Below are positions 13,226 through 41,519 of a stretch of DNA of 64,000 nucleotides, in pieces. The stretch lies in the NCBI RefSeq assembly GCF_003334385.1, contig NZ_QOWN01000002.1; one strand, 5' to 3'. How positions within the stretch are numbered: the first letter of the stretch is position 1; each line of letters starts with the position of its first letter. A program made the position numbers and the translations under genes. Source of the stretch: Escherichia coli. Its GTDB lineage: Bacteria > Pseudomonadota > Gammaproteobacteria > Enterobacterales > Enterobacteriaceae. Below the pieces are notes generated by a model that saw nothing but the letters and a program-made list of their open reading frames with translations, did not search any database and was not told where the DNA came from.

Positions 13226-13254
13226 ATGAATAAAGCGCACTCAACAATCTGAAA

Positions 13255-13621
13255 CCCGCCGGAACGGTTTATTACGTACATCAGGTAAAACTGACCGATA
13301 AGCCGCTTTCTTTTGGGTATAGTGTCGTGGACAGTCATTCATCTTTCTGCCCCTCCAAAAGTAAAAACCCGCCGAAGCGGGTTTTTACGTAAAACAGGTG
13401 AAACTGACCGATAAGCCGCTTTCTTTTGGGTATAGTGTCGTGGACAGTCATTCATCTTTCTGCCCCTCCAAAAGCAAAAACCCGCCGAAGCGGGTTTTTA
13501 CGTAAACCAGGTGAAACTGACCGATAAGCCGCTTTCTTTTGGGTATAGCGTCGTGGACAGTCATTCATCTTTCTGCCCCTCCAAAAGCAAAAACCCGCCG
13601 AAGCGGGTTTTTACGTAAATC
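13255..13621. repeat. About 3.25 direct tandem copies of a 113-bp unit downstream of rnpB; each carries a terminator-like hairpin and a copy of the rnpB 3' end
   Basis: cccgccgaagcggg recurs at 13255, 13368, 13481 and 13594 (period 113); each unit repeats caggtgaaactgaccgataagccg...gtcgtggacagtcattcatct, the 3' terminal rnpB sequence. Confidence 0.85.
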
Positions 13622-13998
<377 letters not shown>

Positions 13999-21261: not shown

Positions 21262-22071
21262 TCACTCCCCGACCAGAATCACTTCAACCCCAGCCTTTCG
21301 CAGTCCTTCCAGGCTATCCGCAGGAATGCCTTCATCAACAATGATCATGTCGATACGTTGAGTATCAATGATCTTATGTAAACTGGAACGATTGAACTTA
21401 CTGGAATCGGTGACCACGATGATCCGTTCCGCAACTTCGCACATCCGACGGTTTAAACGAGCTTCATCTTCATTATGTGTGCTGACGCCGCGCTCCAGAT
21501 CGATCGCATCTACACCAAGAAACAGCATATCGAAGTGGTAATTTTGCAGCGATTGCTCAGCCTGATCGCCGTAAAAAGATTGCGACTGACGGCGCAAATG
21601 CCCGCCGGTCATCAGCAGCTCAACGCCTTCCGCTTCCAGCAACGCATTAGCCACGTTCATACCGTTGGTCATCGCAATTACGTCAGTGTGCTTGCGCATC
21701 AGACGAGCAATCTCAAAAGTGGTGGTCCCGGAATCGAGGATAACCCGATGACCTGGCTGAATCAACTCAACGGCAGCTTTCGCAACGCTGCGTTTCATCG
21801 CGGTGTTCAGTGCGCTTTTATCTTCCACTGATGGCTCGACTGACGGCGTCGTGCTATCGCAGATCAACGCGCCACCATAGGCACGCACAGCGATCCCCTG
21901 CTTTTCCAGAAACGCCAGATCGTTGCGGATCGTCACAGTAGATACGCCATACAATGCCGACAGATCGTTAACCTGCACACTCCCTTGCTGTCGCAGACGC
22001 TGAATGATCTGTTCTCGTCGCTCGCTGGTGCCAGTCACTCGCTTCTCACCTGAAGCGTCGGTATTACTCAT
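21262..22071 (-). CDS. agaR: DeoR-family repressor AgaR, 269 aa
   Basis: N-terminal HTH (…[39 protein letters not shown]…) plus DeoR C-terminal sugar-binding domain. Confidence 0.95.
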
Positions 22072-22084
22072 AGTAAGTCCTTTC

Positions 22085-22295
22085 GTAAAACTTTCGTTTC
22101 ATTTCGTTTTGCCTATTAACGCCTTTCTATTAAGCAAATGCAAGCCCACCTTGCCCATTGACGCAAGCTACTCTCGTTTCAGTGACTTTCATTATGTTTC
22201 TTTTGTGAATCAGATCAGAAAACTATTATCTTTCGTTTTATTTTTATCTCACCATGACGCAGTATCAACTGAAACAAAACGAAAGATTAATATCG
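22085..22295. promoter_or_regulatory. agaR / kbaZ divergent promoters with repeated CTTTC-GTTT (AgaR operator-like) motifs
   Basis: ctttcgtttcatttcgtttt (22091), ctctcgtttcagtgactttc (22171), ctttcgttttattttt (22229) and inverted aaacaaaacgaaag (22271). Confidence 0.5.
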
Positions 22296-22319
22296 CAGTA
22301 ATCTGAACTGGAGAGGAAA

Positions 22320-23600
22320 GTGAAACATCTGACAGAAATGGTGAGAGAGCACAAAGCGGGCAAAACAAATGGAATTTATGCCGTTTGTTCCGCACATCCG
22401 CTGGTGCTGGAGGCTGCAATCCGCTACGCCAGTGCAAACCAAACGCCGTTACTGATTGAAGCAACCTCCAATCAGGTAGACCAGTTCGGCGGTTATACCG
22501 GAATGACGCCCGCCGATTTTCGCGGCTTTGTTTGTCAGCTCGCCGACTCGTTGAATTTCCCGCAGGATGCGTTGATTCTGGGTGGTGACCATCTGGGGCC
22601 AAACCGCTGGCAAAACCTGCCGGCCGCTCAGGCAATGGCCAATGCCGATGATTTGATTAAAAGCTACGTTGCGGCAGGATTCAAAAAAATCCACCTTGAT
22701 TGCAGCATGTCCTGTCAGGACGATCCGATTCCCTTAACTGATGACATCGTGGCTGAACGCGCCGCCCGTCTGGCGAAAGTGGCGGAAGAAACCTGTCTTG
22801 AACACTTTGGCGAAGCCGATCTGGAGTATGTCATTGGTACCGAAGTGCCGGTACCTGGCGGCGCGCATGAAACCTTAAGCGAGCTGGCGGTCACCACGCC
22901 GGATGCCGCCCGCGCCACGCTGGAAGCCCATCGTCACGCCTTTGAAAAGCAAGGTTTGAATGCCATCTGGCCACGCATCATTGCCCTGGTGGTTCAACCC
23001 GGCGTCGAATTCGATCACACCAACGTTATTGATTATCAGCCCGCCAAAGCGAGCGCCTTAAGCCAGATGGTCGAAAACTACGAAACGCTGATTTTCGAAG
23101 CGCACTCTACCGATTATCAAACGCCGCAATCGCTGCGCCAGCTGGTGATTGACCACTTTGCCATTCTGAAAGTTGGCCCAGCGCTGACCTTCGCCCTGCG
23201 TGAAGCTCTGTTCTCTCTGGCGGCGATTGAAGAAGAACTGGTGCCAGCGAAAGCCTGTTCTGGTCTGCGTCAGGTGCTGGAAGACGTGATGCTCGACCGC
23301 CCGGAATACTGGCAAAGCCACTACCACGGTGACGGCAACGCGCGTCGTCTGGCGCGTGGTTATAGCTACTCGGATCGCGTGCGCTATTACTGGCCGGACA
23401 GCCAGATTGATGACGCTTTCGCTCATCTGGTACGTAATCTGGCGGATTCACCAATTCCGCTGCCGCTGATCAGCCAGTATCTGCCGCTGCAGTACGTGAA
23501 AGTTCGCTCCGGCGAGCTGCAGCCAACGCCACGGGAACTCATTATCAACCATATTCAGGACATCCTGGCGCAGTACCACACAGCCTGTGAAGGCCAATAA
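22320..23600 (+). CDS. kbaZ: Tagatose-bisphosphate aldolase non-catalytic subunit KbaZ (AgaZ), 426 aa
   Basis: 426-aa ORF of the GatZ/KbaZ family, first gene after the agaR operator region. Confidence 0.95.
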
Positions 23601-23622
23601 GCAAAACAAAGAGGAACACGCT

Positions 23623-24096
23623 ATGCCAAATATTGTTTTAAGCCGGATTGATGAACGCTTGATTCACGGTCAGGTCGGCGTTCAATGGGTCGGATTTGCG
23701 GGGGCAAATCTGGTGCTGGTAGCCAACGATGAGGTTGCCGAAGATCCGGTACAACAAAACCTGATGGAAATGGTACTGGCAGAAGGGATCGCCGTACGTT
23801 TCTGGACGCTGCAAAAAGTTATCGACAACATTCATCGCGCCGCCGATCGACAGAAAATCCTGCTGGTTTGTAAAACACCCGCCGATTTCCTGACGCTGGT
23901 GAAAGGTGGCGTTCCGGTGAATCGCATTAACGTTGGCAATATGCACTACGCCAATGGCAAACAACAAATCGCCAAAACGGTTTCTGTGGATGCGGGCGAT
24001 ATCGCAGCATTTAACGACCTGAAAACCGCTGGGGTGGAATGCTTCGTTCAGGGCGTCCCGACAGAGCCTGCTGTGGACCTCTTTAAATTACTTTGA
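23623..24096 (+). CDS. agaV: PTS N-acetylgalactosamine-specific EIIB (AgaV), 157 aa
   Basis: MPNIVLSRIDERLIHGQVG... mannose-family EIIB N-terminus with the phospho-His; start trimmed 12 codons from the track ORF. Confidence 0.9.
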   Translation: MPNIVLSRIDERLIHGQVGVQWVGFAGANLVLVANDEVAEDPVQQNLMEMVLAEGIAVRFWTLQKVIDNIHRAADRQKILLVCKTPADFLTLVKGGVPVNRINVGNMHYANGKQQIAKTVSVDAGDIAAFNDLKTAGVECFVQGVPTEPAVDLFKLL

Positions 24097-24106
24097 GGGA
24101 TTCATC

Positions 24107-24886
24107 ATGGAAATCAGCCTGTTGCAGGCATTTGCGTTGGGCATTATCGCCTTTATCGCTGGCCTGGATATGTTTAACGGCCTAACCCATATGCACCGCC
24201 CGGTGGTCCTCGGCCCGTTGGTCGGGCTGGTACTTGGCGATCTGCATACCGGAATTTTAACCGGCGGTACGCTGGAACTGGTGTGGATGGGGCTGGCCCC
24301 GCTGGCGGGCGCACAGCCGCCTAACGTGATTATCGGTACTATCGTCGGCACGGCGTTTGCCATTACTACTGGCGTGAAACCCGATGTCGCAGTAGGTGTC
24401 GCCGTACCTTTCGCTGTCGCAGTACAGATGGGGATTACCTTCCTGTTCTCGGTGATGTCCGGCGTGATGTCTCGCTGCGACCGGATGGCGGAGAACGCCG
24501 ATACTCGCGGCATTGAACGCGTGAACTATCTGGCACTGCTGGCACTCGGCATTTTCTATTTTCTCTGCGCTTTCCTGCCTATCTACTTCGGCGCGGAACA
24601 TGCAAAAACCATCATTGATGTCCTGCCGCAACGATTAATCGACGGCCTCGGCGTCGCGGGCGGCATCATGCCAGCAATCGGTTTTGCCGTGCTGCTGAAA
24701 ATCATGATGAAAAACGTCTACATCCCCTACTTCATCCTGGGCTTTGTTGCCGCCGCCTGGCTCAAGTTACCAGTGCTGGCTATTGCTGCCGCTGCGCTGG
24801 CGATGGCGCTGATCGACTTGCTGCGTAAATCTCCTGAACCGACTCAACCTGCGGCACAGAAAGAGGAATTTGAAGATGGCATCTAA
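24107..24886 (+). CDS. agaW: PTS N-acetylgalactosamine-specific EIIC (AgaW), full length 259 aa
   Basis: 259-aa polytopic ORF, paralog of AgaC (30396-31199); full length, unlike the truncated K-12 allele. Confidence 0.9.
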   Translation: MEISLLQAFALGIIAFIAGLDMFNGLTHMHRPVVLGPLVGLVLGDLHTGILTGGTLELVWMGLAPLAGAQPPNVIIGTIVGTAFAITTGVKPDVAVGVAVPFAVAVQMGITFLFSVMSGVMSRCDRMAENADTRGIERVNYLALLALGIFYFLCAFLPIYFGAEHAKTIIDVLPQRLIDGLGVAGGIMPAIGFAVLLKIMMKNVYIPYFILGFVAAAWLKLPVLAIAAAALAMALIDLLRKSPEPTQPAAQKEEFEDGI

Positions 24887-25754
24887 TCAAACCACCCTGC
24901 CGAACGTCAGTGAAAACGAAGAAACATTGCTGACTGGCGTCAATGAAAACGTGTATGAAGATCAGAGCATTGGCGCGGAGCTGACGAAAAAAGATATCAA
25001 CCGCGTCGCCTGGCGTTCCATGCTGTTACAAGCGTCTTTTAACTACGAACGTATGCAGGCTTCTGGCTGGTTGTACGGTCTGCTGCCTGCTCTGAAAAAG
25101 ATCCACACTAATAAACGCGACCTGGCGCGCGCCATGAAGGGGCATATAGGTTTCTTCAATACCCATCCGTTTCTGGTGACGTTTGTTATCGGCATTATCC
25201 TTGCGATGGAGCGTTCTAAGCAGGACGTTAACAGTATTCAGAGCACCAAAATTGCCGTCGGTGCGCCGCTTGGCGGGATTGGCGATGCAATGTTCTGGCT
25301 AACGCTACTGCCGATTTGTGGCGGGATTGGAGCCAGTCTGGCATTGCAAGGCTCCATTCTTGGCGCAGTCGTCTTTATTGTGCTGTTCAACGTGGTACAC
25401 CTGGGGCTGCGTTTTGGTCTGGCGCATTATGCTTACCGCATGGGCGTGGCGGCGATTCCACTGATTAAAGCGAATACCAAAAAAGTCGGCCATGCTGCGT
25501 CTATCGTTGGGATGACGGTAATCGGTGCGCTGGTGGCAACCTATGTTCGTTTAAGCACCACGCTGGAAATCACGGCGGGCGACGCAGTGGTTAAGTTACA
25601 GGCTGATGTTATCGACAAACTGATGCCGGCCTTCTTACCGTTGGTCTACACCCTGACCATGTTTTGGTTGGTACGCCGCGGCTGGAGTCCGCTGCGTCTG
25701 ATTGCAGTTACCGTGGTTCTCGGCATCGTCGGTAAATTCTGCCATTTCCTTTAA
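24870..25754 (+). CDS. agaE: PTS N-acetylgalactosamine-specific EIID (AgaE)
   Basis: Paralog of AgaD (shared …SFNYERMQA…, …GDAIFWFTLLPI… motifs); start may be 24876 (MASNQ…); absent from K-12. Confidence 0.85.
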   Translation: MKMASNQTTLPNVSENEETLLTGVNENVYEDQSIGAELTKKDINRVAWRSMLLQASFNYERMQASGWLYGLLPALKKIHTNKRDLARAMKGHIGFFNTHPFLVTFVIGIILAMERSKQDVNSIQSTKIAVGAPLGGIGDAMFWLTLLPICGGIGASLALQGSILGAVVFIVLFNVVHLGLRFGLAHYAYRMGVAAIPLIKANTKKVGHAASIVGMTVIGALVATYVRLSTTLEITAGDAVVKLQADVIDKLMPAFLPLVYTLTMFWLVRRGWSPLRLIAVTVVLGIVGKFCHFL

Positions 25755-25771
25755 ATACAATGAGGTATTAG

Positions 25772-26206
25772 ATGTTAAGTATTATTTTGACAGGGCATGG
25801 CGGGTTTGCCAGCGGCATGGAAAAAGCAATGAAGCAAATTCTCGGTGAGCAATCGCAGTTTATCGCCATCGATTTTCCGGAAACCTCAAGCACCGCGCTG
25901 CTTACATCGCAGCTTGAAGAGGCCATCGCCCAACTGGATTGTGAAGACGGCATTGTTTTTCTGACGGATTTGCTGGGCGGCACGCCGTTTCGCGTAGCTT
26001 CAACGCTGGCGATGCAAAAACCGGGCTGTGAAGTGATCACCGGCACCAATTTGCAACTGCTACTGGAGATGGTGCTGGAGCGCGAAGGGTTAAGCGGTGA
26101 AGAATTCCGTGTACAGGCGCTGGAGTGTGGACACCGAGGGCTGACCAGTCTGGTGGACGAGTTAGGCCGCTGCCATGAAGAATGTCCGGTCGAGGAAGGA
26201 ATATGA
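25772..26206 (+). CDS. agaF: PTS N-acetylgalactosamine-specific EIIA (AgaF), 144 aa
   Basis: 144-aa mannose-family EIIA ORF (MLSIILTGHGGFASG…); absent from K-12. Confidence 0.85.
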   Translation: MLSIILTGHGGFASGMEKAMKQILGEQSQFIAIDFPETSSTALLTSQLEEAIAQLDCEDGIVFLTDLLGGTPFRVASTLAMQKPGCEVITGTNLQLLLEMVLEREGLSGEEFRVQALECGHRGLTSLVDELGRCHEECPVEEGI

Positions 26207-27336
26207 CACACGTTCTGCGCGCCAGAAGGCTGCTGACTGAAGAGGGATGGCTCGATGACCATCAGTTGCGTATTGCTGACGGTGTCATCGCAGCAATCGA
26301 ACCGATTCCAGCGGGCGTGACTGAACGCGATGCGGAACTGCTCTGCCCTGCTTACATCGACACCCATGTACACGGTGGTGCGGGCGTTGATGTAATGGAT
26401 GACGCGCCGGATGTACTCGACAAGCTGGCAATGCACAAGGCACGCGAAGGTGTCGGCAGTTGGTTACCGACCACCGTAACCACGCCGCTTAATACCATTC
26501 ATGCGGCGCTGAAACGTATTGCTCAACGTTGCCAACGCGGCGGACCTGGTGCGCAAGTGCTGGGGAGTTATCTCGAAGGACCGTACTTCACGCCGCAGAA
26601 TAAAGGCGCGCATCCGCCGGAGTTGTTTCGCGAGCTTGAAATTGCCGAGCTGGATCAGTTGATTGCCGTTTCTCAGCACACCTTACGTGTGGTAGCGCTG
26701 GCACCGGAAAAAGAAGGGGCATTGCAGGCCATCCGCCATCTTAAACAGCAAAACGTAAGGGTGATGCTGGGGCATAGCGCGGCGACCTGGCAACAAACCC
26801 GCGCCGCATTTGATGCTGGTGCCGACGGCCTGGTGCATTGCTATAACGGGATGACAGGTTTACATCACCGCGAACCGGGAATGGTTGGCGCGGGATTAAC
26901 GGACAAGCGCGCCTGGCTGGAACTGATAGCCGATGGTCATCATGTGCATCCGGCGGCAATGTCGCTGTGTTGTTGCTGTGCGAAAGAGAGAATCGTACTG
27001 ATCACCGACGCGATGCAGGCAGCTGGGATGCCGGATGGTCGCTATACGTTATGTGGTGAAGAAGTGCAGATGCACGGTGGCGTTGTCCGTACCGCGTCTG
27101 GTGGGCTGGCGGGCAGTACGCTGTCTGTTGATGCGGCAGTGCGCAATATGGTCGAGTTGACGGGCGTAACGCCTGCGGAAGCCATCCATATGGCGTCGCT
27201 GCATCCGGCGCGAATGCTGGGTGTTGATGGTGTTCTGGGATCGCTTAAACCGGGCAAACGCGCCAGCGTCGTTGCGCTGGATAGCGGGCTACATGTGCAA
27301 CAAATCTGGATTCAGGGTCAATTAGCTTCGTTTTGA
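26203..27336 (+). CDS. agaA: N-acetylgalactosamine-6-phosphate deacetylase AgaA (NagA family), full length
   Basis: MTHVLRARRLLTEEGWLDDHQLRIADGVIAAIEP… with metal-binding HVHGG motif; start overlaps agaF stop; intact, unlike the K-12 pseudogene. Confidence 0.9.
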   Translation: MTHVLRARRLLTEEGWLDDHQLRIADGVIAAIEPIPAGVTERDAELLCPAYIDTHVHGGAGVDVMDDAPDVLDKLAMHKAREGVGSWLPTTVTTPLNTIHAALKRIAQRCQRGGPGAQVLGSYLEGPYFTPQNKGAHPPELFRELEIAELDQLIAVSQHTLRVVALAPEKEGALQAIRHLKQQNVRVMLGHSAATWQQTRAAFDAGADGLVHCYNGMTGLHHREPGMVGAGLTDKRAWLELIADGHHVHPAAMSLCCCCAKERIVLITDAMQAAGMPDGRYTLCGEEVQMHGGVVRTASGGLAGSTLSVDAAVRNMVELTGVTPAEAIHMASLHPARMLGVDGVLGSLKPGKRASVVALDSGLHVQQIWIQGQLASF

Positions 27337-27375
27337 TAGTTTGCTCCTTTATTGGGCCTTCACTTCCCCCGTAAG

Positions 27376-27648
27376 GCCTTTCTTTTTCTTTCGTTTTGAT
27401 CTGTGCAGCGGTGTCGGATGCGACGCTAACGCGTCTTATCCGACCTACAGTTGGTGACCGCAAGGCCGGATAAAGCGTTTGCGCCGCATCCAGCAATCCC
27501 TTTTGCTTCCTTTATCTTTTCTTTCAACGATCACAAATTTCGTTTTATTTCTTTTTTCTCCATTGAACTTTCAGTTTCTTTTCTATAGATTTTAATCAAC
27601 GAAAGACATCACCAAGTGAAATGAAACGAAAGGCAAGTGAAAGCGACA
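27376..27648. promoter_or_regulatory. agaS promoter region with AgaR operator-like CTTTC/GTTT repeats and an embedded REP/BIME pair (about 27412-27495)
   Basis: tttctttcgttttgatc, atttcgttttatttc, tcagtttcttttc, gaaatgaaacgaaagg; REP units gatgcgacgctaacgcgtcttatccgacctaca and ccggataaagcgtttgcgccgcatcc. Confidence 0.5.
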
Positions 27649-27686
27649 ACGCCCGACGTCAAGTTCATCAGACTAAGGATTGAGTT

Positions 27687-28841
27687 ATGCCAGAAAATTA
27701 CACCCCTGCTGCCGCCGCAACCGGTACATGGACTGAAGAAGAGATCCGCCATCAGCCTCGCGCATGGATCCGTTCACTCACCAACATCGACGCGCTACGT
27801 TCCGCGCTCAATAACTTCCTTGAACCGTTACTGCGCAAAGAGAATCTGCGGATCATCCTGACCGGAGCCGGAACGTCGGCATTTATCGGTGACATCATCG
27901 CGCCGTGGCTCGCCAGCCATACCGGTAAAAACTTCAGCGCCGTACCGACCACCGATCTGGTCACCAATCCGATGGACTACCTGAACCCAGCTCATCCGCT
28001 GCTGTTGATCTCCTTCGGTCGATCCGGCAACAGCCCGGAAAGCGTCGCAGCCGTGGAACTGGCAAATCAATTTGTACCGGAATGCTATCACCTGCCGATC
28101 ACCTGCAACGAAGCGGGCGCTCTTTACCAAAACGCGATCAACAGCGATAACGCGTTTGCCCTGCTGATGCCCGCAGAAACGCACGATCGCGGCTTTGCGA
28201 TGACCAGCAGCATTACCACCATGATGGCCAGCTGCCTCGCGGTTTTCGCACCTGAGACGATCAACAGCCAAACCTTCCGCGACGTGGCGGATCGTTGCCA
28301 GGCGATCCTGACCTCACTGGGCGATTTCAGCGAAGGTGTGTTTGGTTACGCACCGTGGAAACGGATCGTTTATCTCGGTAGCGGTGGCTTACAGGGCGCA
28401 GCACGCGAGTCGGCGCTGAAAGTGCTGGAACTGACGGCGGGTAAACTGGCGGCCTTTTATGATTCTCCAACCGGATTCCGTCATGGACCAAAATCGCTGG
28501 TCGATGACGAAACGCTGGTGGTGGTATTTGTCTCCAGCCACCCTTACACCCGTCAGTATGATCTTGATCTGCTGGCTGAACTTCGCCGTGACAACCAGGC
28601 AATGCGTGTAATCGCCATCGCCGCGGAAAGCAGCGACATCGTCGCTGCCGGTCCACATATCATCCTGCCACCGTCACGTCACTTTATCGACGTTGAGCAG
28701 GCATTTTGCTTCCTGATGTACGCCCAGACGTTTGCACTGATGCAGTCGCTGCACATGGGCAATACGCCGGATACCCCATCAGCCAGTGGCACCGTTAACC
28801 GCGTGGTGCAAGGCGTAATCATTCATCCGTGGCAGGCATAA
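27687..28841 (+). CDS. agaS: Galactosamine-6-phosphate deaminase/isomerase AgaS (SIS domains), 384 aa
   Basis: 384-aa ORF with tandem SIS-domain character after the operator cluster. Confidence 0.95.
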   Translation: MPENYTPAAAATGTWTEEEIRHQPRAWIRSLTNIDALRSALNNFLEPLLRKENLRIILTGAGTSAFIGDIIAPWLASHTGKNFSAVPTTDLVTNPMDYLNPAHPLLLISFGRSGNSPESVAAVELANQFVPECYHLPITCNEAGALYQNAINSDNAFALLMPAETHDRGFAMTSSITTMMASCLAVFAPETINSQTFRDVADRCQAILTSLGDFSEGVFGYAPWKRIVYLGSGGLQGAARESALKVLELTAGKLAAFYDSPTGFRHGPKSLVDDETLVVVFVSSHPYTRQYDLDLLAELRRDNQAMRVIAIAAESSDIVAAGPHIILPPSRHFIDVEQAFCFLMYAQTFALMQSLHMGNTPDTPSASGTVNRVVQGVIIHPWQA

Positions 28842-29714
<873 letters not shown>

Positions 29715-29880
29715 TCATTAGTTTTTTATGATTTATCCCAATGTACTTCCCGATTAATATCGGGGAGTGCCTTAATGGAAAAGGAGATAACTAAACCTTA
29801 ATAAATACATCACTACAATATCGCAACAATAATATATTTAAAAAAATTATATTATTCAACTTTATGGTGAGGATTACACA

Positions 29881-30357
29881 ATAACCAGTCCAAATATTCT
29901 CTTAACCCGTATTGATAACCGTCTGGTTCACGGTCAGGTTGGCGTGACCTGGACATCCACCATCGGTGCAAATCTGCTGGTAGTCGTGGATGATGTTGTC
30001 GCTAACGATGATATTCAACAGAAATTAATGGGTATTACCGCGGAAACCTACGGCTTTGGCATTCGTTTCTTTACTATCGAAAAAACCATTAACGTCATCG
30101 GCAAAGCTGCACCACATCAGAAGATCTTCCTGATTTGCCGTACGCCACAAACGGTACGTAAATTGGTAGAAGTTGGTATTGACCTGAAAGATGTCAACGT
30201 CGGCAATATGCATTTCTCGGAAGGGAAAAAGCAAATCAGCAGTAAAGTTTATGTCGATGACCAGGATCTCACGGACTTACGTTTTATTAAACAACGTGGC
30301 GTGAATGTTTTCATTCAGGACGTCCCTGGCGATCAAAAAGAACAAATCCCTGACTAA
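29881..30357 (+). CDS. agaB: PTS galactosamine-specific EIIB (AgaB); conserved N-terminus begins at an in-frame ATA, first canonical start is GTG 29944
   Basis: In-frame ITSPNILLTRIDNRLVHGQVGVTWT… aligns with the AgaV N-terminus; GAGGA SD 8-12 nt upstream of 29881; no ATG/GTG/TTG in frame before 29944. Confidence 0.75.
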   Translation: MTSPNILLTRIDNRLVHGQVGVTWTSTIGANLLVVVDDVVANDDIQQKLMGITAETYGFGIRFFTIEKTINVIGKAAPHQKIFLICRTPQTVRKLVEVGIDLKDVNVGNMHFSEGKKQISSKVYVDDQDLTDLRFIKQRGVNVFIQDVPGDQKEQIPD

Positions 30358-30395: not shown

Positions 30396-31199
30396 ATGCA
30401 TGAAATAACCCTACTTCAGGGATTATCCCTGGCGGCGTTAGTTTTTGTTCTGGGGATTGATTTTTGGCTGGAAGCCTTATTTTTATTCCGCCCGATAATC
30501 GTTTGTACCCTAACTGGCGCTATTCTCGGTGATATTCAGACTGGCTTAATTACCGGTGGTCTGACAGAGTTGGCTTTCGCCGGATTAACCCCTGCAGGTG
30601 GTGTTCAGCCGCCCAACCCGATTATGGCGGGTCTGATGACCACCGTCATTGCATGGTCTACGGGCGTTGATGCCAAAACAGCAATTGGTCTTGGCCTGCC
30701 GTTTAGTTTGTTAATGCAGTACGTCATTCTGTTCTTCTATTCCGCTTTCTCATTATTTATGACCAAAGCCGATAAATGCGCGAAAGAGGCGGATACGGCA
30801 GCGTTTTCCCGGCTTAACTGGACAACGATGCTCATCGTCGCTTCAGCGTATGCGGTGATTGCTTTCCTCTGTACTTACCTGGCACAGGGGGCGATGCAGG
30901 CGCTGGTGAAAGCGATGCCCGCCTGGCTGACCCACGGCTTTGAAGTGGCTGGCGGTATTCTGCCTGCCGTTGGTTTTGGCTTGCTGCTGCGCGTAATGTT
31001 CAAAGCGCAATATATCCCTTACCTGATCGCCGGTTTCCTGTTTGTTTGCTACATCCAGGTCAGCAACCTGTTGCCGGTTGCCGTACTGGGCGCAGGCTTT
31101 GCGGTGTATGAGTTTTTCAATGCGAAATCCCGGCAGCAAGCGCAACCGCAGCCCGTTGCCAGTAAAAATGAAGAAGAGGACTACAGCAATGGGATCTGA
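30396..31199 (+). CDS. agaC: PTS galactosamine-specific EIIC (AgaC), 267 aa
   Basis: 267-aa polytopic ORF, paralog of AgaW. Confidence 0.95.
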   Translation: MHEITLLQGLSLAALVFVLGIDFWLEALFLFRPIIVCTLTGAILGDIQTGLITGGLTELAFAGLTPAGGVQPPNPIMAGLMTTVIAWSTGVDAKTAIGLGLPFSLLMQYVILFFYSAFSLFMTKADKCAKEADTAAFSRLNWTTMLIVASAYAVIAFLCTYLAQGAMQALVKAMPAWLTHGFEVAGGILPAVGFGLLLRVMFKAQYIPYLIAGFLFVCYIQVSNLLPVAVLGAGFAVYEFFNAKSRQQAQPQPVASKNEEEDYSNGI

Positions 31200-31980
31200 A
31201 ATCAGTAAAAAAGATATCACCCGTCTGGGCTTTCGTTCGTCGCTGCTGCAAGCGAGCTTTAACTACGAAAGGATGCAGGCGGGCGGTTTTACCTGGGCGA
31301 TGTTGCCGATCCTGAAAAAGATTTATAAGGACGACAAACCGGGCTTAAGCGCGGCGATGAAAGATAACCTCGAATTTATTAATACCCACCCGAATCTGGT
31401 CGGATTCCTGATGGGGTTATTAATTTCGATGGAAGAAAAAGGAGAAAACCGCGACACCATTAAAGGCCTCAAAGTGGCACTGTTTGGCCCAATCGCCGGG
31501 ATTGGCGATGCGATTTTCTGGTTTACTTTGTTGCCGATTATGGCGGGAATTTGCTCATCATTTGCCAGCCAGGGAAACCTGCTGGGGCCGATTCTATTTT
31601 TCGCCGTTTACCTGCTTATCTTTTTCCTGCGCGTCGGCTGGACCCACGTCGGTTATTCAGTCGGCGTGAAGGCGATCGATAAAGTGCGAGAGAACTCGCA
31701 GATGATTGCCCGTTCGGCAACCATCCTCGGGATCACGGTAATCGGCGGGCTGATCGCTTCGTATGTGCATATTAACGTGGTGACATCGTTTGCCATCGAC
31801 AATACCCACAGCGTTGCGCTGCAGCAGGATTTCTTCGATAAAGTCTTCCCGAACATTTTACCGATGGCCTACACCCTGCTGATGTATTACTTCCTGCGGG
31901 TGAAAAAAGCGCATCCGGTGCTGTTAATCGGCGTGACTTTTGTGCTCTCTATTGTTTGTTCCGCATTCGGCATTTTGTAA
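31189..31980 (+). CDS. agaD: PTS galactosamine-specific EIID (AgaD), 263 aa
   Basis: MGSEISKKDITRLGFRSSLLQASFNYERMQA…; start overlaps the agaC stop; track ORF extended upstream. Confidence 0.95.
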   Translation: MGSEISKKDITRLGFRSSLLQASFNYERMQAGGFTWAMLPILKKIYKDDKPGLSAAMKDNLEFINTHPNLVGFLMGLLISMEEKGENRDTIKGLKVALFGPIAGIGDAIFWFTLLPIMAGICSSFASQGNLLGPILFFAVYLLIFFLRVGWTHVGYSVGVKAIDKVRENSQMIARSATILGITVIGGLIASYVHINVVTSFAIDNTHSVALQQDFFDKVFPNILPMAYTLLMYYFLRVKKAHPVLLIGVTFVLSIVCSAFGIL

Positions 31981-32736
31981 ATGGAACGAGGCACTGCGTC
32001 TGGTGGTGCCTCTTTACTTAAGGAATTTCATCCTGTGCAAACCCTTCAGCAAGTTGAAAACTATACGGCGTTAAGTGAACGTGCCAGCGAATATTTATTG
32101 GCCGTGATCCGTAGCAAACCGAATGCCGTGATTTGCCTGGCGACCGGAGCCACGCCATTACTGACGTATCATTATCTGGTAGAAAAAATCCACCAGCAGC
32201 AGGTTGATGTCAGCCAGCTCACCTTCGTGAAGCTCGACGAATGGGTGGATCTGCCATTAACGATGCCAGGCACCTGCGAAACTTTCCTGCAACAGCATAT
32301 CGTGCAGCCGCTGGGGCTACGTGAAGACCAGCTCATCAGCTTTCGCTCCGAAGAGATAAATGAGACAGAGTGCGAACGGGTAACGAACCTGATTGCGCGC
32401 AAAGGCGGTCTGGATTTATGCGTTCTCGGATTGGGGAAAAACGGTCATCTTGGGCTGAACGAACCGGGAGAAAGCCTGCAACCGGCCTGCCATATCAGTC
32501 AACTTGATGCCAGAACACAGCAACATGAGATGTTAAAAACCGCGGGTCGCCCCGTGACTCGTGGGATCACCTTAGGCCTGAAGGATATTCTCAATGCCCG
32601 CGAAGTTTTGTTACTGGTGACTGGCGAAGGAAAGCAGGATGCGACAGATCGTTTTCTCACGGCTAAAGTCTCTACCGCTATCCCGGCTTCATTTTTATGG
32701 CTGCACAGTAACTTTATTTGTTTAATTAACACCTAA
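31981..32736 (+). CDS. agaI: Putative galactosamine-6-phosphate deaminase/isomerase AgaI (NagB family), 251 aa
   Basis: 251-aa ORF starting directly after the agaD stop; NagB-like. Confidence 0.9.
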   Translation: MERGTASGGASLLKEFHPVQTLQQVENYTALSERASEYLLAVIRSKPNAVICLATGATPLLTYHYLVEKIHQQQVDVSQLTFVKLDEWVDLPLTMPGTCETFLQQHIVQPLGLREDQLISFRSEEINETECERVTNLIARKGGLDLCVLGLGKNGHLGLNEPGESLQPACHISQLDARTQQHEMLKTAGRPVTRGITLGLKDILNAREVLLLVTGEGKQDATDRFLTAKVSTAIPASFLWLHSNFICLINT

Positions 32737-33136
32737 CCAGATGAAAAATTTGCTCAAAATGTTTAAATTAACTTATGTAACAGTCACGCATTATATTAAA
32801 TAACATTTGACTGGGTTGAACATAACGCCGATAGCAAAAGGAGTTATGTTCAACAATTTAATTTTAGATATACATATAACTTGTTCTATTAATAAATCAC
32901 CTCGTATTCTGACTCGCCCCCTGGCGCAGCAAAGTCAGGCATTTATACTCTTTTGAATACATAGAAAATTGATATCAATATAATGAAAATATCAAATATT
33001 TGCATATAAATATAATCTTAAAGTTCAGTCTATTTAATGTTCAATGAAATATTTCTGCCTGTATAATCTTTAAAGATGTTGAACATATATTCACATTAAA
33101 TATGATTATGTACTTGTTACAAGGATAAGGTTATAT
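32737..33136. promoter_or_regulatory. AT-rich 400-bp region upstream of yraH (probable H-NS-silenced fimbrial promoter)
   Basis: Very low GC with A/T tracts; promoter elements not individually resolved. Confidence 0.35.
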
Positions 33137-33721
33137 ATGAATAAAGTTACAAAAACAGCTATTGCGGGCTTACTTGCGCTTTTCGCAGGTAATGCCGCTG
33201 CAACCGATGGTGAAATAGTTTTTGATGGCGAGATTTTAAAATCCGCTTGTGAAATCAATGACTCTGATAAGAAAATTGAAGTTGCTCTTGGTCACTATAA
33301 TGCCGAACAGTTTCGTAATATTGGCGAGCGTAGCCCAAAAATTCCATTCACTATTCCTTTAGTTAACTGCCCAATGACTGGGTGGGAGCACGATAACGGC
33401 AACGTTGAAGCGTCTTTCCGTCTATGGCTGGAAACGCGAGATAATGGCACCGTCCCTAACTTCCCTAATCTGGCAAAAGTAGGCTCTTTTGCTGGCATAG
33501 CGGCAACAGGTGTGGGTATCCGTATTGACGATGCGGAAAGCGGAAACATTATGCCACTGAATGCTATGGGCAATGATAACACGGTTTATCAGATCCCGGC
33601 GGAATCCAATGGTATTGTCAATGTTGACCTCATCGCTTACTACGTATCAACCGTAGTTCCATCAGAAATCACCCCAGGGGAAGCAGACGCTATCGTTAAC
33701 GTAACGCTGGATTACCGTTAA
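33137..33721 (+). CDS. yraH: Fimbrial major subunit-like protein YraH, 194 aa
   Basis: Signal peptide MNKVTKTAIAGLLALFAGNAAA then fimbrial subunit-like sequence with C-terminal aromatic residue. Confidence 0.9.
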   Translation: MNKVTKTAIAGLLALFAGNAAATDGEIVFDGEILKSACEINDSDKKIEVALGHYNAEQFRNIGERSPKIPFTIPLVNCPMTGWEHDNGNVEASFRLWLETRDNGTVPNFPNLAKVGSFAGIAATGVGIRIDDAESGNIMPLNAMGNDNTVYQIPAESNGIVNVDLIAYYVSTVVPSEITPGEADAIVNVTLDYR

Positions 33722-33726
33722 TACGT

Positions 33727-33765
33727 TAGGGCGTTATCTGACCTGTCAGATAACGCCCTTTTCCT
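33727..33765 (+). terminator. Rho-independent terminator/attenuator after yraH
   Basis: agggcgttatctga-cctg-tcagataacgccct perfect hairpin followed by TTTTCC. Confidence 0.6.
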
Positions 33766-33800
33766 TCCTCTTTCTCGTTGTATCAGGTTGAAAAATAACT

Positions 33801-34496
33801 ATGTCAAAACGAACATTCGCGGTGATATTAACCTTGTTGTGTAGCTTCTGTATTGGCCAGGCGCTTGCAGGAGGAATCGTTTTACAGCGAACGCGAGTGA
33901 TCTATGATGCCAGCCGCAAAGAGGCTGCGTTACCTGTCGCAAACAAAGGCGCAGAAACGCCTTATTTACTGCAATCATGGGTAGATAATATAGATGGTAA
34001 AAGCCGTGCCCCATTTATTATAACCCCACCGCTATTTCGTCTTGAGGCTGGCGATGACTCATCACTGCGAATTATTAAAACAGCTGATAACCTGCCTGAA
34101 AATAAAGAGTCGCTGTTCTACATTAATGTTCGTGCCATTCCAGCAAAGAAAAAATCAGATGATGTTAATGCTAACGAGTTGACGCTGGTATTTAAAACAC
34201 GGATCAAAATGTTTTATCGCCCCGCACACCTGAAGGGACGGGTAAACGATGCGTGGAAATCACTGGAATTTAAACGTAGTGACCATTCACTCAATATATA
34301 TAACCCAACTGAATATTACGTCGTATTTGCCGGACTGGCAGTCGATAAAACCGATCTCACAAGCAAAATTGAATATATCGCGCCCGGAGAACATAAACAG
34401 TTACCACTTCCTGCATCTGGCGGAAAGAACGTGAAATGGGCTGCGATCAATGATTATGGCGGCAGTTCCGGGACAGAAACTCGTCCACTGCAATAA
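33801..34496 (+). CDS. yraI: Periplasmic fimbrial chaperone YraI (PapD-like), 231 aa
   Basis: Signal peptide plus PapD-family chaperone-like sequence; position between subunit and usher. Confidence 0.9.
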
Positions 34497-34524
34497 AAAA
34501 TATAAAAACACAGGTCATCAGGGA

Positions 34525-37041
34525 ATGCCACAACGACACCACCAGGGACATAAACGCACACCGAAACAGTTGGCGCTCATCATCAAACGTTGTTTGCCGA
34601 TGGTGCTCACTGGCAGCGGCATGCTTTGCACTACCGCTAACGCCGAAGAGTATTATTTCGACCCCATTATGCTGGAAACCACAAAAAGTGGTATGCAAAC
34701 AACCGATCTGTCGCGTTTTTCAAAAAAATATGCACAACTACCAGGAACTTATCAGGTTGATATCTGGCTGAATAAAAAGAAGGTTTCACAGAAAAAAATT
34801 ACATTTACCGCCAATGCAGAGCAACTTCTGCAGCCACAGTTTACGGTAGAACAACTACGTGAGCTGGGGATTAAGGTGGATGAAATCCCGGCGCTGGCTG
34901 AAAAAGATGACGATAGCGTGATCAACTCGCTTGAACAAATCATTCCCGGTACAGCTGCTGAATTTGATTTCAATCATCAGCAACTTAATTTGAGCATTCC
35001 CCAAATTGCACTGTACCGTGATGCAAGAGGTTACGTCTCCCCTTCTCGTTGGGACGATGGTATACCAACGCTGTTTACCAACTACTCGTTTACAGGTTCT
35101 GATAACCGTTACCGCCAGGGCAATCGTAGCCAACGACAGTACCTGAATATGCAAAATGGTGCTAATTTTGGCCCCTGGCGATTACGCAACTATTCCACAT
35201 GGACACGCAACGATCAGACATCAAGCTGGAATACCATCAGTAGTTATTTACAACGTGATATCAAGGCGTTGAAGTCTCAGTTGCTTCTGGGAGAAAGCGC
35301 CACCAGCGGCAGTATTTTTTCCAGCTACACCTTTACTGGCGTGCAACTCGCTTCCGACGATAATATGTTGCCAAACAGCCAGCGCGGATTTGCCCCAACG
35401 GTACGCGGTATCGCAAACAGTAGTGCAATCGTGACTATCAGGCAAAATGGTTATGTGATCTATCAAAGCAACGTGTCAGCGGGTGCCTTTGAAATTAACG
35501 ATCTCTACCCCTCTTCCAACAGCGGCGATTTAGAAGTCACGATTGAAGAAAGTGACGGTACACAACGTCGCTTTATCCAGCCTTATTCTTCATTACCCAT
35601 GATGCAGCGACCTGGGCATCTAAAGTATAGCGCGACCGCTGGACGCTATCGCGCTGATGCAAACAGTGATAGCAAGGAACCCGAATTTGCTGAAGCCACG
35701 GCAATATATGGTTTGAATAATACTTTTACGCTGTATGGCGGCCTGCTCGGTTCTGAAGATTATTATGCGCTGGGGATCGGTATCGGCGGCACACTTGGCG
35801 CACTGGGCGCGTTGTCGATGGATATCAACAGAGCTGACACCCAATTCGATAACCAGCACTCTTTTCATGGCTATCAATGGCGTACGCAGTACATCAAAGA
35901 TATCCCGGAAACCAACACCAATATCGCTGTCAGCTACTATCGCTATACCAACGATGGCTATTTTAGTTTTAATGAAGCCAATACCCGCAATTGGGACTAT
36001 AACAGTCGCCAAAAAAGTGAAATTCAATTCAACATCAGCCAGACAATATTTGATGGGGTAAGTCTGTATGCCTCCGGTTCGCAGCAAGACTATTGGGGCA
36101 ATAACGATAAAAACAGGAATATCTCTGTTGGGGTTTCCGGCCAGCAATGGGGAGTTGGTTACAGCCTGAATTATCAATACAGCCGCTACACTGATCAAAA
36201 TAATGACCGCGCACTCTCTTTGAATCTCAGTATTCCGTTAGAACGCTGGTTACCGCGTAGCCGGGTTTCCTATCAGATGACCAGCCAGAAAGATCGCCCA
36301 ACCCAACATGAAATGCGTCTTGATGGCTCACTGCTGGATGATGGTCGCCTGAGCTATAGCCTGGAACAAAGTCTGGATGACGATAACAACCATAACAGTA
36401 GCCTGAACGCCAGTTACCGTTCACCTTATGGCACCTTCAGTGCCGGATACAGCTACGGTAATGACAGCAGCCAATACAATTACGGCGTTACCGGCGGCGT
36501 GGTTATCCATCCTCATGGCGTGACGCTCTCGCAATATCTGGGCAACGCTTTTGCGCTTATCGATGCTAACGGAGCATCTGGCGTGAGGATACAAAACTAT
36601 CCGGGGATTGCTACCGATCCTTTTGGCTATGCAGTGGTTCCTTATCTCACAACTTATCAGGAAAACCGTCTCTCGGTAGATACTACGCAGCTGCCCGATA
36701 ACGTCGATCTTGAACAAACAACACAGTTTGTGGTGCCCAACAGAGGTGCAATGGTAGCGGCGCGTTTCAACGCCAATATCGGTTATCGCGTACTTGTTAC
36801 AGTCAGCGATCGCAACGGTAAACCGTTGCCCTTTGGCGCTCTTGCCAGCAACGATGATACGGGGCAACAAAGTATCGTCGATGAGGGCGGCATACTATAT
36901 CTCTCTGGGATATCGAGTAAATCACAAAGCTGGACTGTACGCTGGGGAAATCAGGCAGATCAACAATGTCAGTTTGCTTTCAGTACACCGGATTCAGAAC
37001 CTACAACCTCTGTATTACAAGGCACAGCGCAGTGCCATTAA
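34525..37041 (+). CDS. yraJ: Outer-membrane fimbrial usher YraJ, 838 aa
   Basis: Large beta-rich ORF with signal peptide and usher-type conserved C-terminal Cys pair; start trimmed from the 863-aa track ORF. Confidence 0.9.
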   Translation: MPQRHHQGHKRTPKQLALIIKRCLPMVLTGSGMLCTTANAEEYYFDPIMLETTKSGMQTTDLSRFSKKYAQLPGTYQVDIWLNKKKVSQKKITFTANAEQLLQPQFTVEQLRELGIKVDEIPALAEKDDDSVINSLEQIIPGTAAEFDFNHQQLNLSIPQIALYRDARGYVSPSRWDDGIPTLFTNYSFTGSDNRYRQGNRSQRQYLNMQNGANFGPWRLRNYSTWTRNDQTSSWNTISSYLQRDIKALKSQLLLGESATSGSIFSSYTFTGVQLASDDNMLPNSQRGFAPTVRGIANSSAIVTIRQNGYVIYQSNVSAGAFEINDLYPSSNSGDLEVTIEESDGTQRRFIQPYSSLPMMQRPGHLKYSATAGRYRADANSDSKEPEFAEATAIYGLNNTFTLYGGLLGSEDYYALGIGIGGTLGALGALSMDINRADTQFDNQHSFHGYQWRTQYIKDIPETNTNIAVSYYRYTNDGYFSFNEANTRNWDYNSRQKSEIQFNISQTIFDGVSLYASGSQQDYWGNNDKNRNISVGVSGQQWGVGYSLNYQYSRYTDQNNDRALSLNLSIPLERWLPRSRVSYQMTSQKDRPTQHEMRLDGSLLDDGRLSYSLEQSLDDDNNHNSSLNASYRSPYGTFSAGYSYGNDSSQYNYGVTGGVVIHPHGVTLSQYLGNAFALIDANGASGVRIQNYPGIATDPFGYAVVPYLTTYQENRLSVDTTQLPDNVDLEQTTQFVVPNRGAMVAARFNANIGYRVLVTVSDRNGKPLPFGALASNDDTGQQSIVDEGGILYLSGISSKSQSWTVRWGNQADQQCQFAFSTPDSEPTTSVLQGTAQCH

Positions 37042-37051
37042 GGATAAAAAA

Positions 37052-38143: not shown

Positions 38144-38185
38144 AAGAAGACGTTGCGTTTTGATTAACGCAACGCTTCGGCACTG

Positions 38186-41500: not shown

Positions 41501-41519
41501 TTAAGGTTTAAGGATTAGC

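What the first reader, a model, noticed from the sequence alone, without database searches (positions are those of the whole stretch)
24107..27336. Intact agaW-agaE-agaF-agaA segment: the aga/gam cluster is complete, unlike E. coli K-12
K-12 carries a deletion that truncates agaW and agaA and removes agaE and agaF, making it unable to use N-acetylgalactosamine. Here agaW (259 aa), agaE, agaF (144 aa) and agaA (full-length NagA-like deacetylase with metal-binding motifs) are all intact, alongside agaBCD, agaS, kbaYZ and agaI. Together with the metY G46 allele this marks the source as a non-K-12 lineage with a potentially complete pathway, apart from the agaB start-codon question.
Basis: partly seen in the sequence, partly recalled or inferred. 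Interest (0 to 1): 0.3.

Follow-up and report, generated by a model that had tools for sequence, protein, structure and literature searches.

The report
Intact GalNAc-uptake genes, missing from K-12
This E. coli segment carries the normal, undeleted agaW-agaE-agaF-agaA genes for taking up and deacetylating N-acetylgalactosamine, as about 91% of sequenced E. coli do; this is ordinary and well documented, and only the lab strain K-12 and a few relatives have lost them.

Summary
agaW (24107-24886, 259 aa), agaE (24876-25754, 292 aa), agaF (25772-26206, 144 aa) and agaA (26203-27336, 377 aa) are open. Each has a Shine-Dalgarno sequence and scores above NCBIfam's curated equivalog cut-off.

Alignment with MG1655 places the K-12 deletion at window 24483-26787 (2,305 bp). 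It lies between two copies of GCGACC and leaves an out-of-frame 133-codon agaW stub.

The intact state is the common one. The segment is present in 4,931 of 5,426 complete E. coli genomes. The K-12 junction is in 370, close to the 365 that carry K-12's metY A46 allele.

"Non-K-12" needs qualifying. The window is collinear with MG1655 and differs by only 19 SNPs in 61.7 kb, so the source is a near sister of K-12.

The GalNAc branch is predicted to work. The galactosamine branch is doubtful: agaB starts with ATA (1 of 5,272 genomes) and also carries G98V at a conserved glycine (0 of 5,231). agaE M91I and kbaZ Q10E are also private to this source.

All of this is textbook aga/gam biology (Brinkkötter 2000; Hu 2013). 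Verdict: real, correctly interpreted, already known, low interest.

The parts
21262..22071 (-). [quoted passage not shown]
   Evidence: Open frame. The closest genome annotates the matching gene as AgaR, WP_000072187.1.
22092..22284 (.). agaR-kbaZ divergent control region with five AgaR-box-like TTTCRTTTYRTTTY motifs
   Evidence: The motif has 8 matches in the window against 0.58 expected, and 5 of them fall here. The consensus was recalled from Ray & Larson 2004 and was not re-read.
22320..23600 (+). kbaZ (agaZ), tagatose-bisphosphate aldolase subunit, 426 aa, GTG start; private Q10E at 22347
   Evidence: The allele is absent from 4,986 genomes.
23623..24096 (+). agaV, GalNAc PTS subunit IIB (157 aa)
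   Evidence: NF008508 equivalog, 319.7 bits against a cut-off of 180.
24107..24886 (+). agaW, GalNAc PTS subunit IIC (259 aa), intact
   Evidence: NF040757, 410.5 bits against 300. Aligns to ManY residues 1-244 of PDB 7DYR/6K1H. K-12 keeps only codons 1-125.
24876..25754 (+). agaE, GalNAc PTS subunit IID (292 aa), intact; private M91I at 25148
   Evidence: NF040760, 615.7 bits against 500. The only difference from the O157:H7 protein is M91I. The allele is absent from 4,930 genomes. This position is Leu in the best-matching solved mannose-family IID (PDB 7VLX).
25772..26206 (+). agaF, IIA subunit shared by the GalNAc and galactosamine PTS (144 aa), intact
   Evidence: NF040761, 219 bits against 130. 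Identical to the O157:H7 Z1814 protein. His9 aligns with the phosphorylated His of IIA-Man (1PDO) and Gly91 is wild type.
26203..27336 (+). agaA, GalNAc-6-phosphate deacetylase of the NagA family (377 aa), intact; its ATG overlaps the agaF stop (ATGA)
   Evidence: TIGR00221, 290 bits against 225.65. The HxH, E, H, H and D ligand motifs align with B. subtilis NagA 2VHL. K-12 keeps only the C-terminal 186 codons.
24483..26787 (.). The 2,305 bp that K-12 lacks (3' part of agaW, all of agaE and agaF, 5' part of agaA)
   Evidence: Alignments with the K-12-type strain PG20180175 and with MG1655.
24477..24482 (+). Left copy of the GCGACC microhomology at the K-12 deletion breakpoint
   Evidence: With the right copy it forms CGC[T/G]GCGACC, matching at 9 of 10 positions.
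26782..26787 (+). Right copy of the GCGACC microhomology
27337..27686 (.). agaA-agaS spacer: a REP-like palindromic pair (27413-27491), then two AgaR-box-like motifs (27538-27551 and 27618-27631) in front of agaS
27687..28841 (+). agaS, galactosamine-6-phosphate deaminase/isomerase (384 aa)
   Evidence: TIGR02815, 634.9 bits against 529.2. Its role is taken from PMC3668189.
28854..29714 (+). kbaY (agaY), tagatose-bisphosphate aldolase (286 aa)
29881..30357 (+). agaB, galactosamine PTS subunit IIB (158 codons), with an ATA start codon (29881-29883) and G98V (30173)
   Evidence: ATA is in 1 of 5,272 genomes and G98V in 0 of 5,231. Gly98 is conserved in 3EYE, 8YRI and 3P3V. The next in-frame start, GTG at 29944, would remove His17.
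30396..31199 (+). agaC, galactosamine PTS subunit IIC (267 aa), intact, without the O157 amber codon 8
31189..31980 (+). agaD, galactosamine PTS subunit IID (263 aa)
31981..32736 (+). agaI (251 aa), intact, without the O157 amber codon 72
   Evidence: NF007291, 472.5 bits against 271.

Best explanation
The segment is the ordinary, ancestral form of the first aga operon (kbaZ-agaVWEFA) of E. coli. The chromosome carrying it is almost identical to K-12 but never suffered K-12's 2,305-bp deletion.

Functions inferred from family membership and published genetics:
- AgaW (IIC) and AgaE (IID) form the membrane permease of a mannose-family PTS.
- AgaV (IIB) and AgaF (IIA, shared with the galactosamine system AgaBCD) relay phosphate from HPr, so N-acetylgalactosamine enters as GalNAc-6-P.
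- AgaA, a NagA-type metal amidohydrolase, deacetylates GalNAc-6-P to GalN-6-P.
- AgaS deaminates GalN-6-P to tagatose-6-P, which is then phosphorylated and split by KbaY/KbaZ.

AgaR-box-like motifs lie in front of kbaZ/agaR and in front of agaS, which fits the published regulation by AgaR.

The K-12 lesion is a derived deletion between two GCGACC copies, most likely by slippage or illegitimate recombination at the microhomology.

What is shown here: gene integrity, family membership, the key residues, the breakpoints and the population frequencies.

What is inferred: a GalNAc-positive phenotype for this strain, and an impaired galactosamine branch because of the agaB ATA start and G98V.
For: - Intact ORFs with Shine-Dalgarno sequences and translational coupling.
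- Equivalog-level NCBIfam hits for all four proteins.
- AgaF is identical to the O157:H7 protein, AgaE differs from it only at M91I, AgaW at 1 residue and AgaA at 4 residues. O157:H7 EDL933 is experimentally GalNAc-positive (PMC3668189).
- AgaF His9 aligns with the IIA-Man active His and Gly91 is wild type.
- The AgaA metal-ligand motifs are conserved against 2VHL.
- AgaW and AgaE align over the full length of the ManY and ManZ cryo-EM chains.
- K-12 breakpoints at 24482|26788 with 6-bp microhomology, leaving a 133-codon out-of-frame agaW stub.
- The segment is present in 4,931 of 5,426 genomes at 96.6-100% identity among the full-length sampled records, which include O157:H7, O55:H7, ETEC and a BL21-type B strain. 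The K-12 junction is in 370.
- 7 of 8 AgaR-box-like motifs in the window fall in the two aga control regions, against 0.58 expected.
- Literature: the 2.3-kb deletion makes K-12 Aga- Gam-; E. coli C has all 13 genes and is Aga+ Gam+; agaBCD serve galactosamine uptake (PMC3668189; PMC9628945).
- AUA initiates at about 0.02-3% of AUG (bioRxiv 10.1101/063800).
Against: - No phenotype is available.
- Single missense changes can abolish growth on GalNAc, as AgaF G91S does in the O157:H7 spinach-outbreak isolates.
- This window carries private missense changes in agaE (M91I) and kbaZ (Q10E) that are seen in none of about 5,000 genomes, and their effect is untested.
- agaA is dispensable when nagA is present, so its intactness says little about phenotype.
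- The deletion mechanism is inferred from the junction sequence alone.
Confidence: 0.9

Rival explanations
1. The ORFs are intact but the pathway is not functional. One of the private missense changes (AgaE M91I in the IID permease subunit, KbaZ Q10E) inactivates GalNAc use, as the single AgaF G91S change does in some O157:H7 isolates.
For: M91I and Q10E are absent from 4,930 and 4,986 complete genomes respectively. AgaE is otherwise invariant between this phylogroup-A-like haplotype and O157:H7. There is a precedent for a point-mutation Aga- phenotype (PMC3668189).
Against: Met to Ile is conservative, and this position is Leu in the best-matching solved mannose-family IID (PDB 7VLX). Q10E lies near the KbaZ N-terminus. 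Neither change touches a known catalytic residue. The HMM scores remain far above the cut-offs.
Confidence: 0.08
2. The four private substitutions, including the agaB ATA start, are sequencing or assembly errors. The true strain would then carry the common haplotype and be fully Aga+ Gam+.
For: All four differ from a haplotype shared base-for-base by more than 20 unrelated complete genomes. All four are non-synonymous. Three are seen in no genome and one in a single genome.
Against: Private differences also occur elsewhere in the window at a comparable rate (2 in 33001-45001, 0 in 45002-57002). A high non-synonymous share (6 of 8 candidate private SNPs) is expected for very recent real mutations. 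All are substitutions, not the homopolymer indels typical of assembly error. ATA at the agaB start exists independently in SCU-104.
Confidence: 0.15
3. The source is a K-12 derivative whose aga region was repaired by transfer (for example P1 transduction) of about 64 kb or more from a close Aga+ relative, rather than a natural non-K-12 strain.
For: The window is collinear with MG1655 and differs at only 19 positions. A P1 fragment could span the whole window. Aga+ K-12 constructs are plausible laboratory objects.
Against: There is no K-12-identical flank at either end that would mark a recombination boundary: the differences run from 852 to 63954, including metY G46. Many natural ST10-like genomes carry the same haplotype. 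No scar or marker is visible.
Confidence: 0.03

Closest known systems
Complete aga/gam regulon of E. coli C / ATCC 8739 (Brinkkötter et al. 2000; Hu et al. 2013, PMC3668189)
   Same: The same 13 genes in the same order and orientation, with agaW, agaE, agaF and agaA full length. There are two control regions with AgaR-box-like motifs. None of the O157 lesions is present.
   Different: agaB begins with ATA and carries G98V. There are private changes AgaE M91I and KbaZ Q10E. The E. coli C sequence itself was not aligned here; comparison was with CFSAN061761, SCU-104, O157:H7 Z1814 and MG1655.
E. coli K-12 MG1655 aga region (agaW' / 'agaA pseudogenes)
   Same: The flanking DNA is 99.97% identical and collinear across 64 kb. 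agaR, agaV, agaS, kbaY, agaC, agaD and agaI encode identical proteins.
   Different: K-12 lacks window 24483-26787 (2,305 bp). It has metY A46, an ATG start in agaB and Gly98 in AgaB, and C instead of T at 22224 in the agaR-kbaZ spacer.
E. coli O157:H7 aga/gam cluster (EDL933/Sakai type)
   Same: agaWEFA are intact. AgaF is identical and AgaE differs only at M91I. About 98.8% DNA identity over 12 kb.
   Different: O157 carries amber codons in agaC and agaI, which makes it Gam-. In the record used here agaI is marked 'internal stop' and agaC is annotated with a later start. The window has both genes open, and its lesion candidate is in agaB instead.
Mannose-family PTS permease ManXYZ (TC 4.A.6; PDB 6K1H/7DYR, 1PDO, 1VSQ)
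   Same: The four-part IIA/IIB/IIC/IID architecture. Full-length alignment of AgaW to ManY and of AgaE to ManZ. The IIA active-site His is conserved.
   Different: IIA and IIB are separate polypeptides (AgaF, AgaV) rather than a fused ManX. The substrate is GalNAc. IIA is shared with a second permease (AgaBCD).

Membership tests
Complete (E. coli C-type) aga/gam regulon | All 13 genes present in the order agaR | kbaZ-agaV-W-E-F-A | agaS-kbaY-agaB-C-D-I | tested here: met
   ORFs and annotation of the closest genome (4 differences in 15 kb).
Complete (E. coli C-type) aga/gam regulon | Absence of the K-12 2.3-kb agaW-agaA deletion | tested here: met
   The window contains 24483-26787, which is missing from MG1655 and from the K-12-type strain PG20180175.
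Complete (E. coli C-type) aga/gam regulon | No known inactivating point lesions (agaF G91S, agaC Q8amber, agaI Q72amber) | tested here: met
   AgaF has Gly91. agaC (267 aa) and agaI (251 aa) are open.
Complete (E. coli C-type) aga/gam regulon | Every gene has a functional start codon and a wild-type product | tested here: not met
   The agaB start is ATA and AgaB carries G98V at a conserved Gly. This affects only the galactosamine branch.
Complete (E. coli C-type) aga/gam regulon | Growth on GalNAc and on galactosamine (Aga+ Gam+) | not testable with these tools
   This needs the strain.
Mannose-family PTS (IIA/IIB/IIC/IID), GalNAc-specific | Equivalog-level match of each subunit | tested here: met
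   AgaW NF040757, AgaE NF040760, AgaF NF040761 and AgaV NF008508 all score above the curated cut-offs.
Mannose-family PTS (IIA/IIB/IIC/IID), GalNAc-specific | Phosphorylatable His in IIA (His10 of IIA-Man) and in IIB | tested here: met
   AgaF His9 aligns with the His of 1PDO/1VSQ. AgaV has the RIDERLIHGQV motif. The residue roles are from established knowledge of IIA/IIB-Man.
NagA-family N-acetylhexosamine-6-phosphate deacetylase | Full-length amidohydrolase fold with the metal and catalytic motifs (HxH, E, H, H, D) | tested here: met
   TIGR00221 scores 290 bits against 225.65. THVHGG, LEGP, LGHS, VHCYN and ITDA align with the corresponding B. subtilis NagA (2VHL) motifs. Which residues are ligands is from memory of the 2VHL and E. 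coli NagA literature.
NagA-family N-acetylhexosamine-6-phosphate deacetylase | Deacetylase activity on GalNAc-6-P | not testable with these tools
   Reported for AgaA by Leyn et al., as cited in PMC3668189; not tested for this allele.

The most novel reading that the evidence does not exclude
The most novel reading concerns agaB rather than the intact agaWEFA. This near-K-12 strain may be caught at the first step of losing, or strongly down-tuning, the galactosamine branch. It carries an ATG->ATA start-codon change and G98V in agaB, and both are essentially absent from more than 5,200 genomes. It would be one more independent hit in a cluster that E. coli lineages erode repeatedly: the K-12 deletion, a different agaE-agaF-agaA' deletion in AST46, IS1A in agaC in several ST10-like strains, and the amber codons in O157.
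Probability: 0.4. Interest if true: 0.2.

Novelty: already known. Interest (0 to 1): 0.08.

Why it matters
It matters little beyond annotation. It shows that the source is not K-12 itself but a very close relative that keeps the ancestral GalNAc genes. It also predicts an Aga+ and probably Gam-impaired phenotype. The K-12 deletion and the complete cluster have been described since 2000. The population numbers computed here quantify what was already known qualitatively: intact in about 91% of complete genomes, K-12 junction in about 7%, a count close to that of metY A46. The small added value is the exact breakpoint with its 6-bp microhomology, and the evidence that lesions in the aga/gam cluster recur independently.

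Tried and rejected
- **Source strain:** none of 5,426 complete genomes is identical. The best aga haplotype still differs at 4 positions. SCU-104 shares the ATA allele but differs at 15 positions in 24 kb and lacks the other private SNPs.
- **Enrichment of private substitutions in the aga cluster (possible relaxed selection):** 4, 2 and 0 private differences in three consecutive 12-kb blocks. This is not distinguishable from a uniform low rate, so I make no claim.
- **Long repeats or mobile-element ends that could explain the K-12 deletion:** none, only the 6-bp (9 of 10) microhomology.
- **Generic sigma-70 and terminator scan of 21900-30000:** promoter-like sites were no more frequent than in shuffles (4 against 6.7), and terminator-like sites were within about 1.5 sd of the shuffle mean (14 against 8.9, sd 3.5). 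This was uninformative for these CRP/AgaR-controlled promoters.
- **Rfam scan:** no RNA family inside the aga cluster.
- **An alternative upstream in-frame start for agaB:** none exists. The first canonical in-frame start is GTG 29944 (codon 22), which would delete His17.
- **E. coli C itself:** O157:H7 and several phylogroup-A genomes served instead.
Full report
**1. The observation**

The window is E. coli chromosome. A 12-kb query around the finding matches 5,385 of 5,426 complete E. coli genomes. The closest record, CFSAN061761, differs at 4 bases in 15 kb.

ORF listing and re-translation give four genes:
- agaW, 24107-24886, 259 aa
- agaE, 24876-25754, 292 aa from the ATG that PGAP uses; the mechanical ORF begins six bases earlier at a TTG
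- agaF, 25772-26206, 144 aa
- agaA, 26203-27336, 377 aa; a longer in-frame ATG lies at 26182, but 26203 has a GGAAGGAA Shine-Dalgarno sequence and overlaps the agaF stop as ATGA

None has an internal stop. The finding's coordinates are exactly the agaW start and the agaA stop.

Each protein scores above NCBIfam's curated equivalog cut-off: AgaW 410.5 bits against 300, AgaE 615.7 against 500, AgaF 219 against 130, and the NagA-type deacetylase 290 against 225.65. The remaining nine genes of the cluster (agaR, kbaZ, agaV, agaS, kbaY, agaB, agaC, agaD, agaI) are present in the canonical order and open.

**2. Functional residues**

- AgaF His9 aligns with the phosphorylated His of IIA-Man (1PDO/1VSQ). 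Gly91, the residue changed to Ser in the GalNAc-negative O157:H7 spinach-outbreak isolates, is wild type (PMC3668189).
- AgaA keeps the HxH, Glu, His, His and Asp motifs in register with B. subtilis NagA 2VHL.
- AgaW aligns with ManY over residues 1-244. AgaE aligns with ManZ over nearly its whole length.
- Against O157:H7 strain Z1814, AgaF is identical, AgaE differs only at M91I, AgaW differs at one residue and AgaA at four.

**3. The K-12 comparison**

Alignment with a K-12-type genome and with MG1655 shows that K-12 lacks window 24483-26787, exactly 2,305 bp. The hexamer GCGACC occurs at both edges (24477-24482 and 26782-26787). With its neighbours it gives CGC[T/G]GCGACC, matching at 9 of 10 positions.

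No longer repeat or mobile-element end flanks the deletion. I therefore infer a microhomology-mediated deletion by slippage or illegitimate recombination. This rests on the junction sequence only.

In K-12 the join is out of frame. agaW' reads 125 native codons plus 8 foreign ones, 133 in all. 'agaA keeps only its last 186 codons.

The literature states that this 2.3-kb deletion makes K-12 Aga- Gam-, because it removes the shared IIA (agaF) among other genes. E. coli C has all 13 genes and is Aga+ Gam+ (PMC3668189; PMC9628945).

**4. How common is the intact state?**

- The 2,305-bp segment is present at 80% coverage or more in 4,931 of 5,426 complete genomes. Identity is 96.6-100% among the full-length sampled records, which include O157:H7, O55:H7, ETEC and a BL21-type B strain.
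- An 80-bp probe across the K-12 junction is matched in full by 370 genomes. Most are laboratory K-12 derivatives. At least one is a 4.84-Mb isolate from Brazil, Br_178_kylling.
- K-12's metY allele (A46) with its downstream spacer is matched exactly by 365 genomes.

I did not test whether they occur in the same genomes. The intact aga segment is the ancestral majority state, and the K-12 form is the derived exception.

**5. What lineage is this?**

The whole window is collinear with MG1655. Apart from the indel it differs at 19 positions in 61.7 kb. Block 45002-57002 is identical to MG1655, and block 33001-45001 differs at two positions.

The source is therefore not K-12 sensu stricto, since it has metY G46 (window 63954) and intact aga. 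It is a very close relative, effectively the K-12 haplotype before the deletion. "Non-K-12 lineage" is correct only in that narrow sense.

A repaired K-12 derivative, for example by P1 transduction of a fragment spanning the whole window, cannot be formally excluded from 64 kb. Nothing supports it either.

**6. Private changes and the completeness of the pathway**

More than 20 unrelated genomes share one aga haplotype. The window differs from it at four positions, and all four are non-synonymous:

| Position | Gene and change | Genomes carrying the allele |
|---|---|---|
| 22347 | kbaZ Q10E | 0 of 4,986 |
| 25148 | agaE M91I | 0 of 4,930 |
| 29883 | agaB ATG->ATA | 1 of 5,272, SCU-104 |
| 30173 | agaB G98V | 0 of 5,231 |

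SCU-104 is not the source. It differs from the window at 15 positions in 24 kb and lacks the other three private changes.

- **agaE M91I.** The change is conservative, and this position is Leu in the best-matching solved mannose-family IID (PDB 7VLX).
- **agaB G98V.** This hits the first Gly of a GG pair that is conserved in all three aligned IIB structures: 3EYE, which is AgaB itself, 8YRI and 3P3V.
- **agaB ATA start.** AUA supports initiation at roughly 0.02-3% of AUG in E. coli reporters (bioRxiv 10.1101/063800). The next in-frame canonical start is GTG at codon 22, which would remove the His17 of the RIDNRLVHGQ motif.

Published genetics assign agaBCD to galactosamine uptake only. I therefore predict that the GalNAc branch (AgaVWE + AgaF, AgaA/NagA, AgaS, KbaYZ) is functional and the galactosamine branch is impaired. 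Both predictions are inferences.

The private changes are not significantly concentrated in the aga cluster: 4, 2 and 0 per 12-kb block. A high non-synonymous share is expected for very recent mutations. Sequencing error remains a minor alternative.

**7. Surroundings**

The motif TTTCRTTTYRTTTY is the core of the AgaR operator consensus, as I recall it from Ray & Larson 2004; I did not re-read that paper. It occurs 8 times in the window against 0.58 expected. Seven of the eight fall in the agaR-kbaZ spacer (22092-22284) or just upstream of agaS (27538-27631). This fits the published two-operon, AgaR-repressed layout.

The agaA-agaS spacer also holds a REP-like palindromic pair at 27413-27491. 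No Rfam family lies in the cluster. The generic promoter and terminator scan was uninformative.

**8. Comparison with what is known, and verdict**

This is the complete aga/gam regulon as described for E. coli C and, for the GalNAc half, for O157:H7. The proteins are members of the mannose-family PTS and of the NagA deacetylase family. Every sequence-level membership feature that I could test is met, except a canonical start and a wild-type sequence for agaB.

The K-12 deletion has been known since Brinkkötter et al. 2000, cited as reference 6 in PMC3668189.

The only mildly new points are the exact breakpoint microhomology, the population counts, and the private agaB lesions. The agaB lesions sit alongside several independent lesions of this cluster in other strains: IS1A in agaC in SCU-118 and others, a different agaE-agaF-agaA' deletion in AST46, and the agaI internal stop and shortened agaC in O157.

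Noticed in passing
window 29881-29883 and 30173 (agaB): The agaB start codon is ATA instead of ATG, an allele present in 1 of 5,272 complete genomes (SCU-104). A second private change, G98V, hits a glycine conserved in all aligned IIB structures and is seen in 0 of 5,231 genomes. Together they probably cripple the galactosamine-specific IIB.
   Followed up: yes
window 25148 (agaE) and 22347 (kbaZ): The private missense changes AgaE M91I and KbaZ Q10E are absent from about 4,930 and 4,986 complete genomes. AgaE is otherwise identical between this haplotype and O157:H7.
   Followed up: yes
window 1-64000: The whole window is collinear with K-12 MG1655. Apart from the 2,305-bp indel it differs at only 19 positions, so the source is a near sister of K-12 rather than a distant lineage.
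   Followed up: yes
window 63954 (metY, - strand, tRNA 63924-64000): metY carries G at tRNA position 46 (linear base 47), where K-12 has A. K-12's allele with its spacer is matched exactly by 365 of 5,426 genomes, almost the same count as the K-12 aga junction (370).
   Followed up: partly
window 22224 (agaR-kbaZ spacer): K-12 has C where the window, CFSAN061761 and SCU-104 have T. The position is next to a -10-like hexamer on the minus strand (22225-22230) and an AgaR-box-like motif (22231-22244), so it may be a K-12-specific regulatory SNP.
   Followed up: no
L009 9397-10977 (strain SCU-118; the same roughly 777-bp insertion is seen in H2, H3, H5 and H148-H150): An IS1A element interrupts agaC in several ST10-like genomes that otherwise share the window's aga haplotype. 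This is an independent knock-out of the galactosamine permease.
   Followed up: partly
L010 5404-5749 (strain AST46): A different deletion removes agaE, agaF and the 5' part of agaA while leaving agaW whole. It shows that loss of this segment has happened more than once.
   Followed up: partly
L008 5665-6589 (strain Br_178_kylling, Brazil, 4.84 Mb): A non-laboratory-sized genome carries the exact K-12 agaW'/'agaA junction. This suggests the deletion exists in natural relatives of K-12 and is not a laboratory artefact.
   Followed up: partly
window 13252-13644, next to rnpB (13622-13998, - strand): There are 3.5 tandem copies of a 113-bp unit (96% matches), each with a terminator-like GC hairpin and T run, immediately downstream of the RNase P RNA gene. 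CFSAN061761 has an island of about 9 kb at this spot (integrase, FliC/FljB-family flagellin with a phase-1 flagellin repressor, IS3/IS30 remnants), which the window and K-12 lack.
   Followed up: no
window 56938-57109, 57339-57453, 58966-59036, 63735-63835: Rfam gathering-level hits were found to SraG, the S15 leader, naRNA4 and the rimP leader. These are the expected non-coding elements of the pnp-rpsO-infB-nusA-metY region.
   Followed up: no
window 27413-27491: A REP-like palindromic pair (BIME-like) lies in the agaA-agaS spacer. A 38-bp piece of it (27412-27449) was the only match to the 12-kb query in one genome (strain SL124, hit H30).
   Followed up: no
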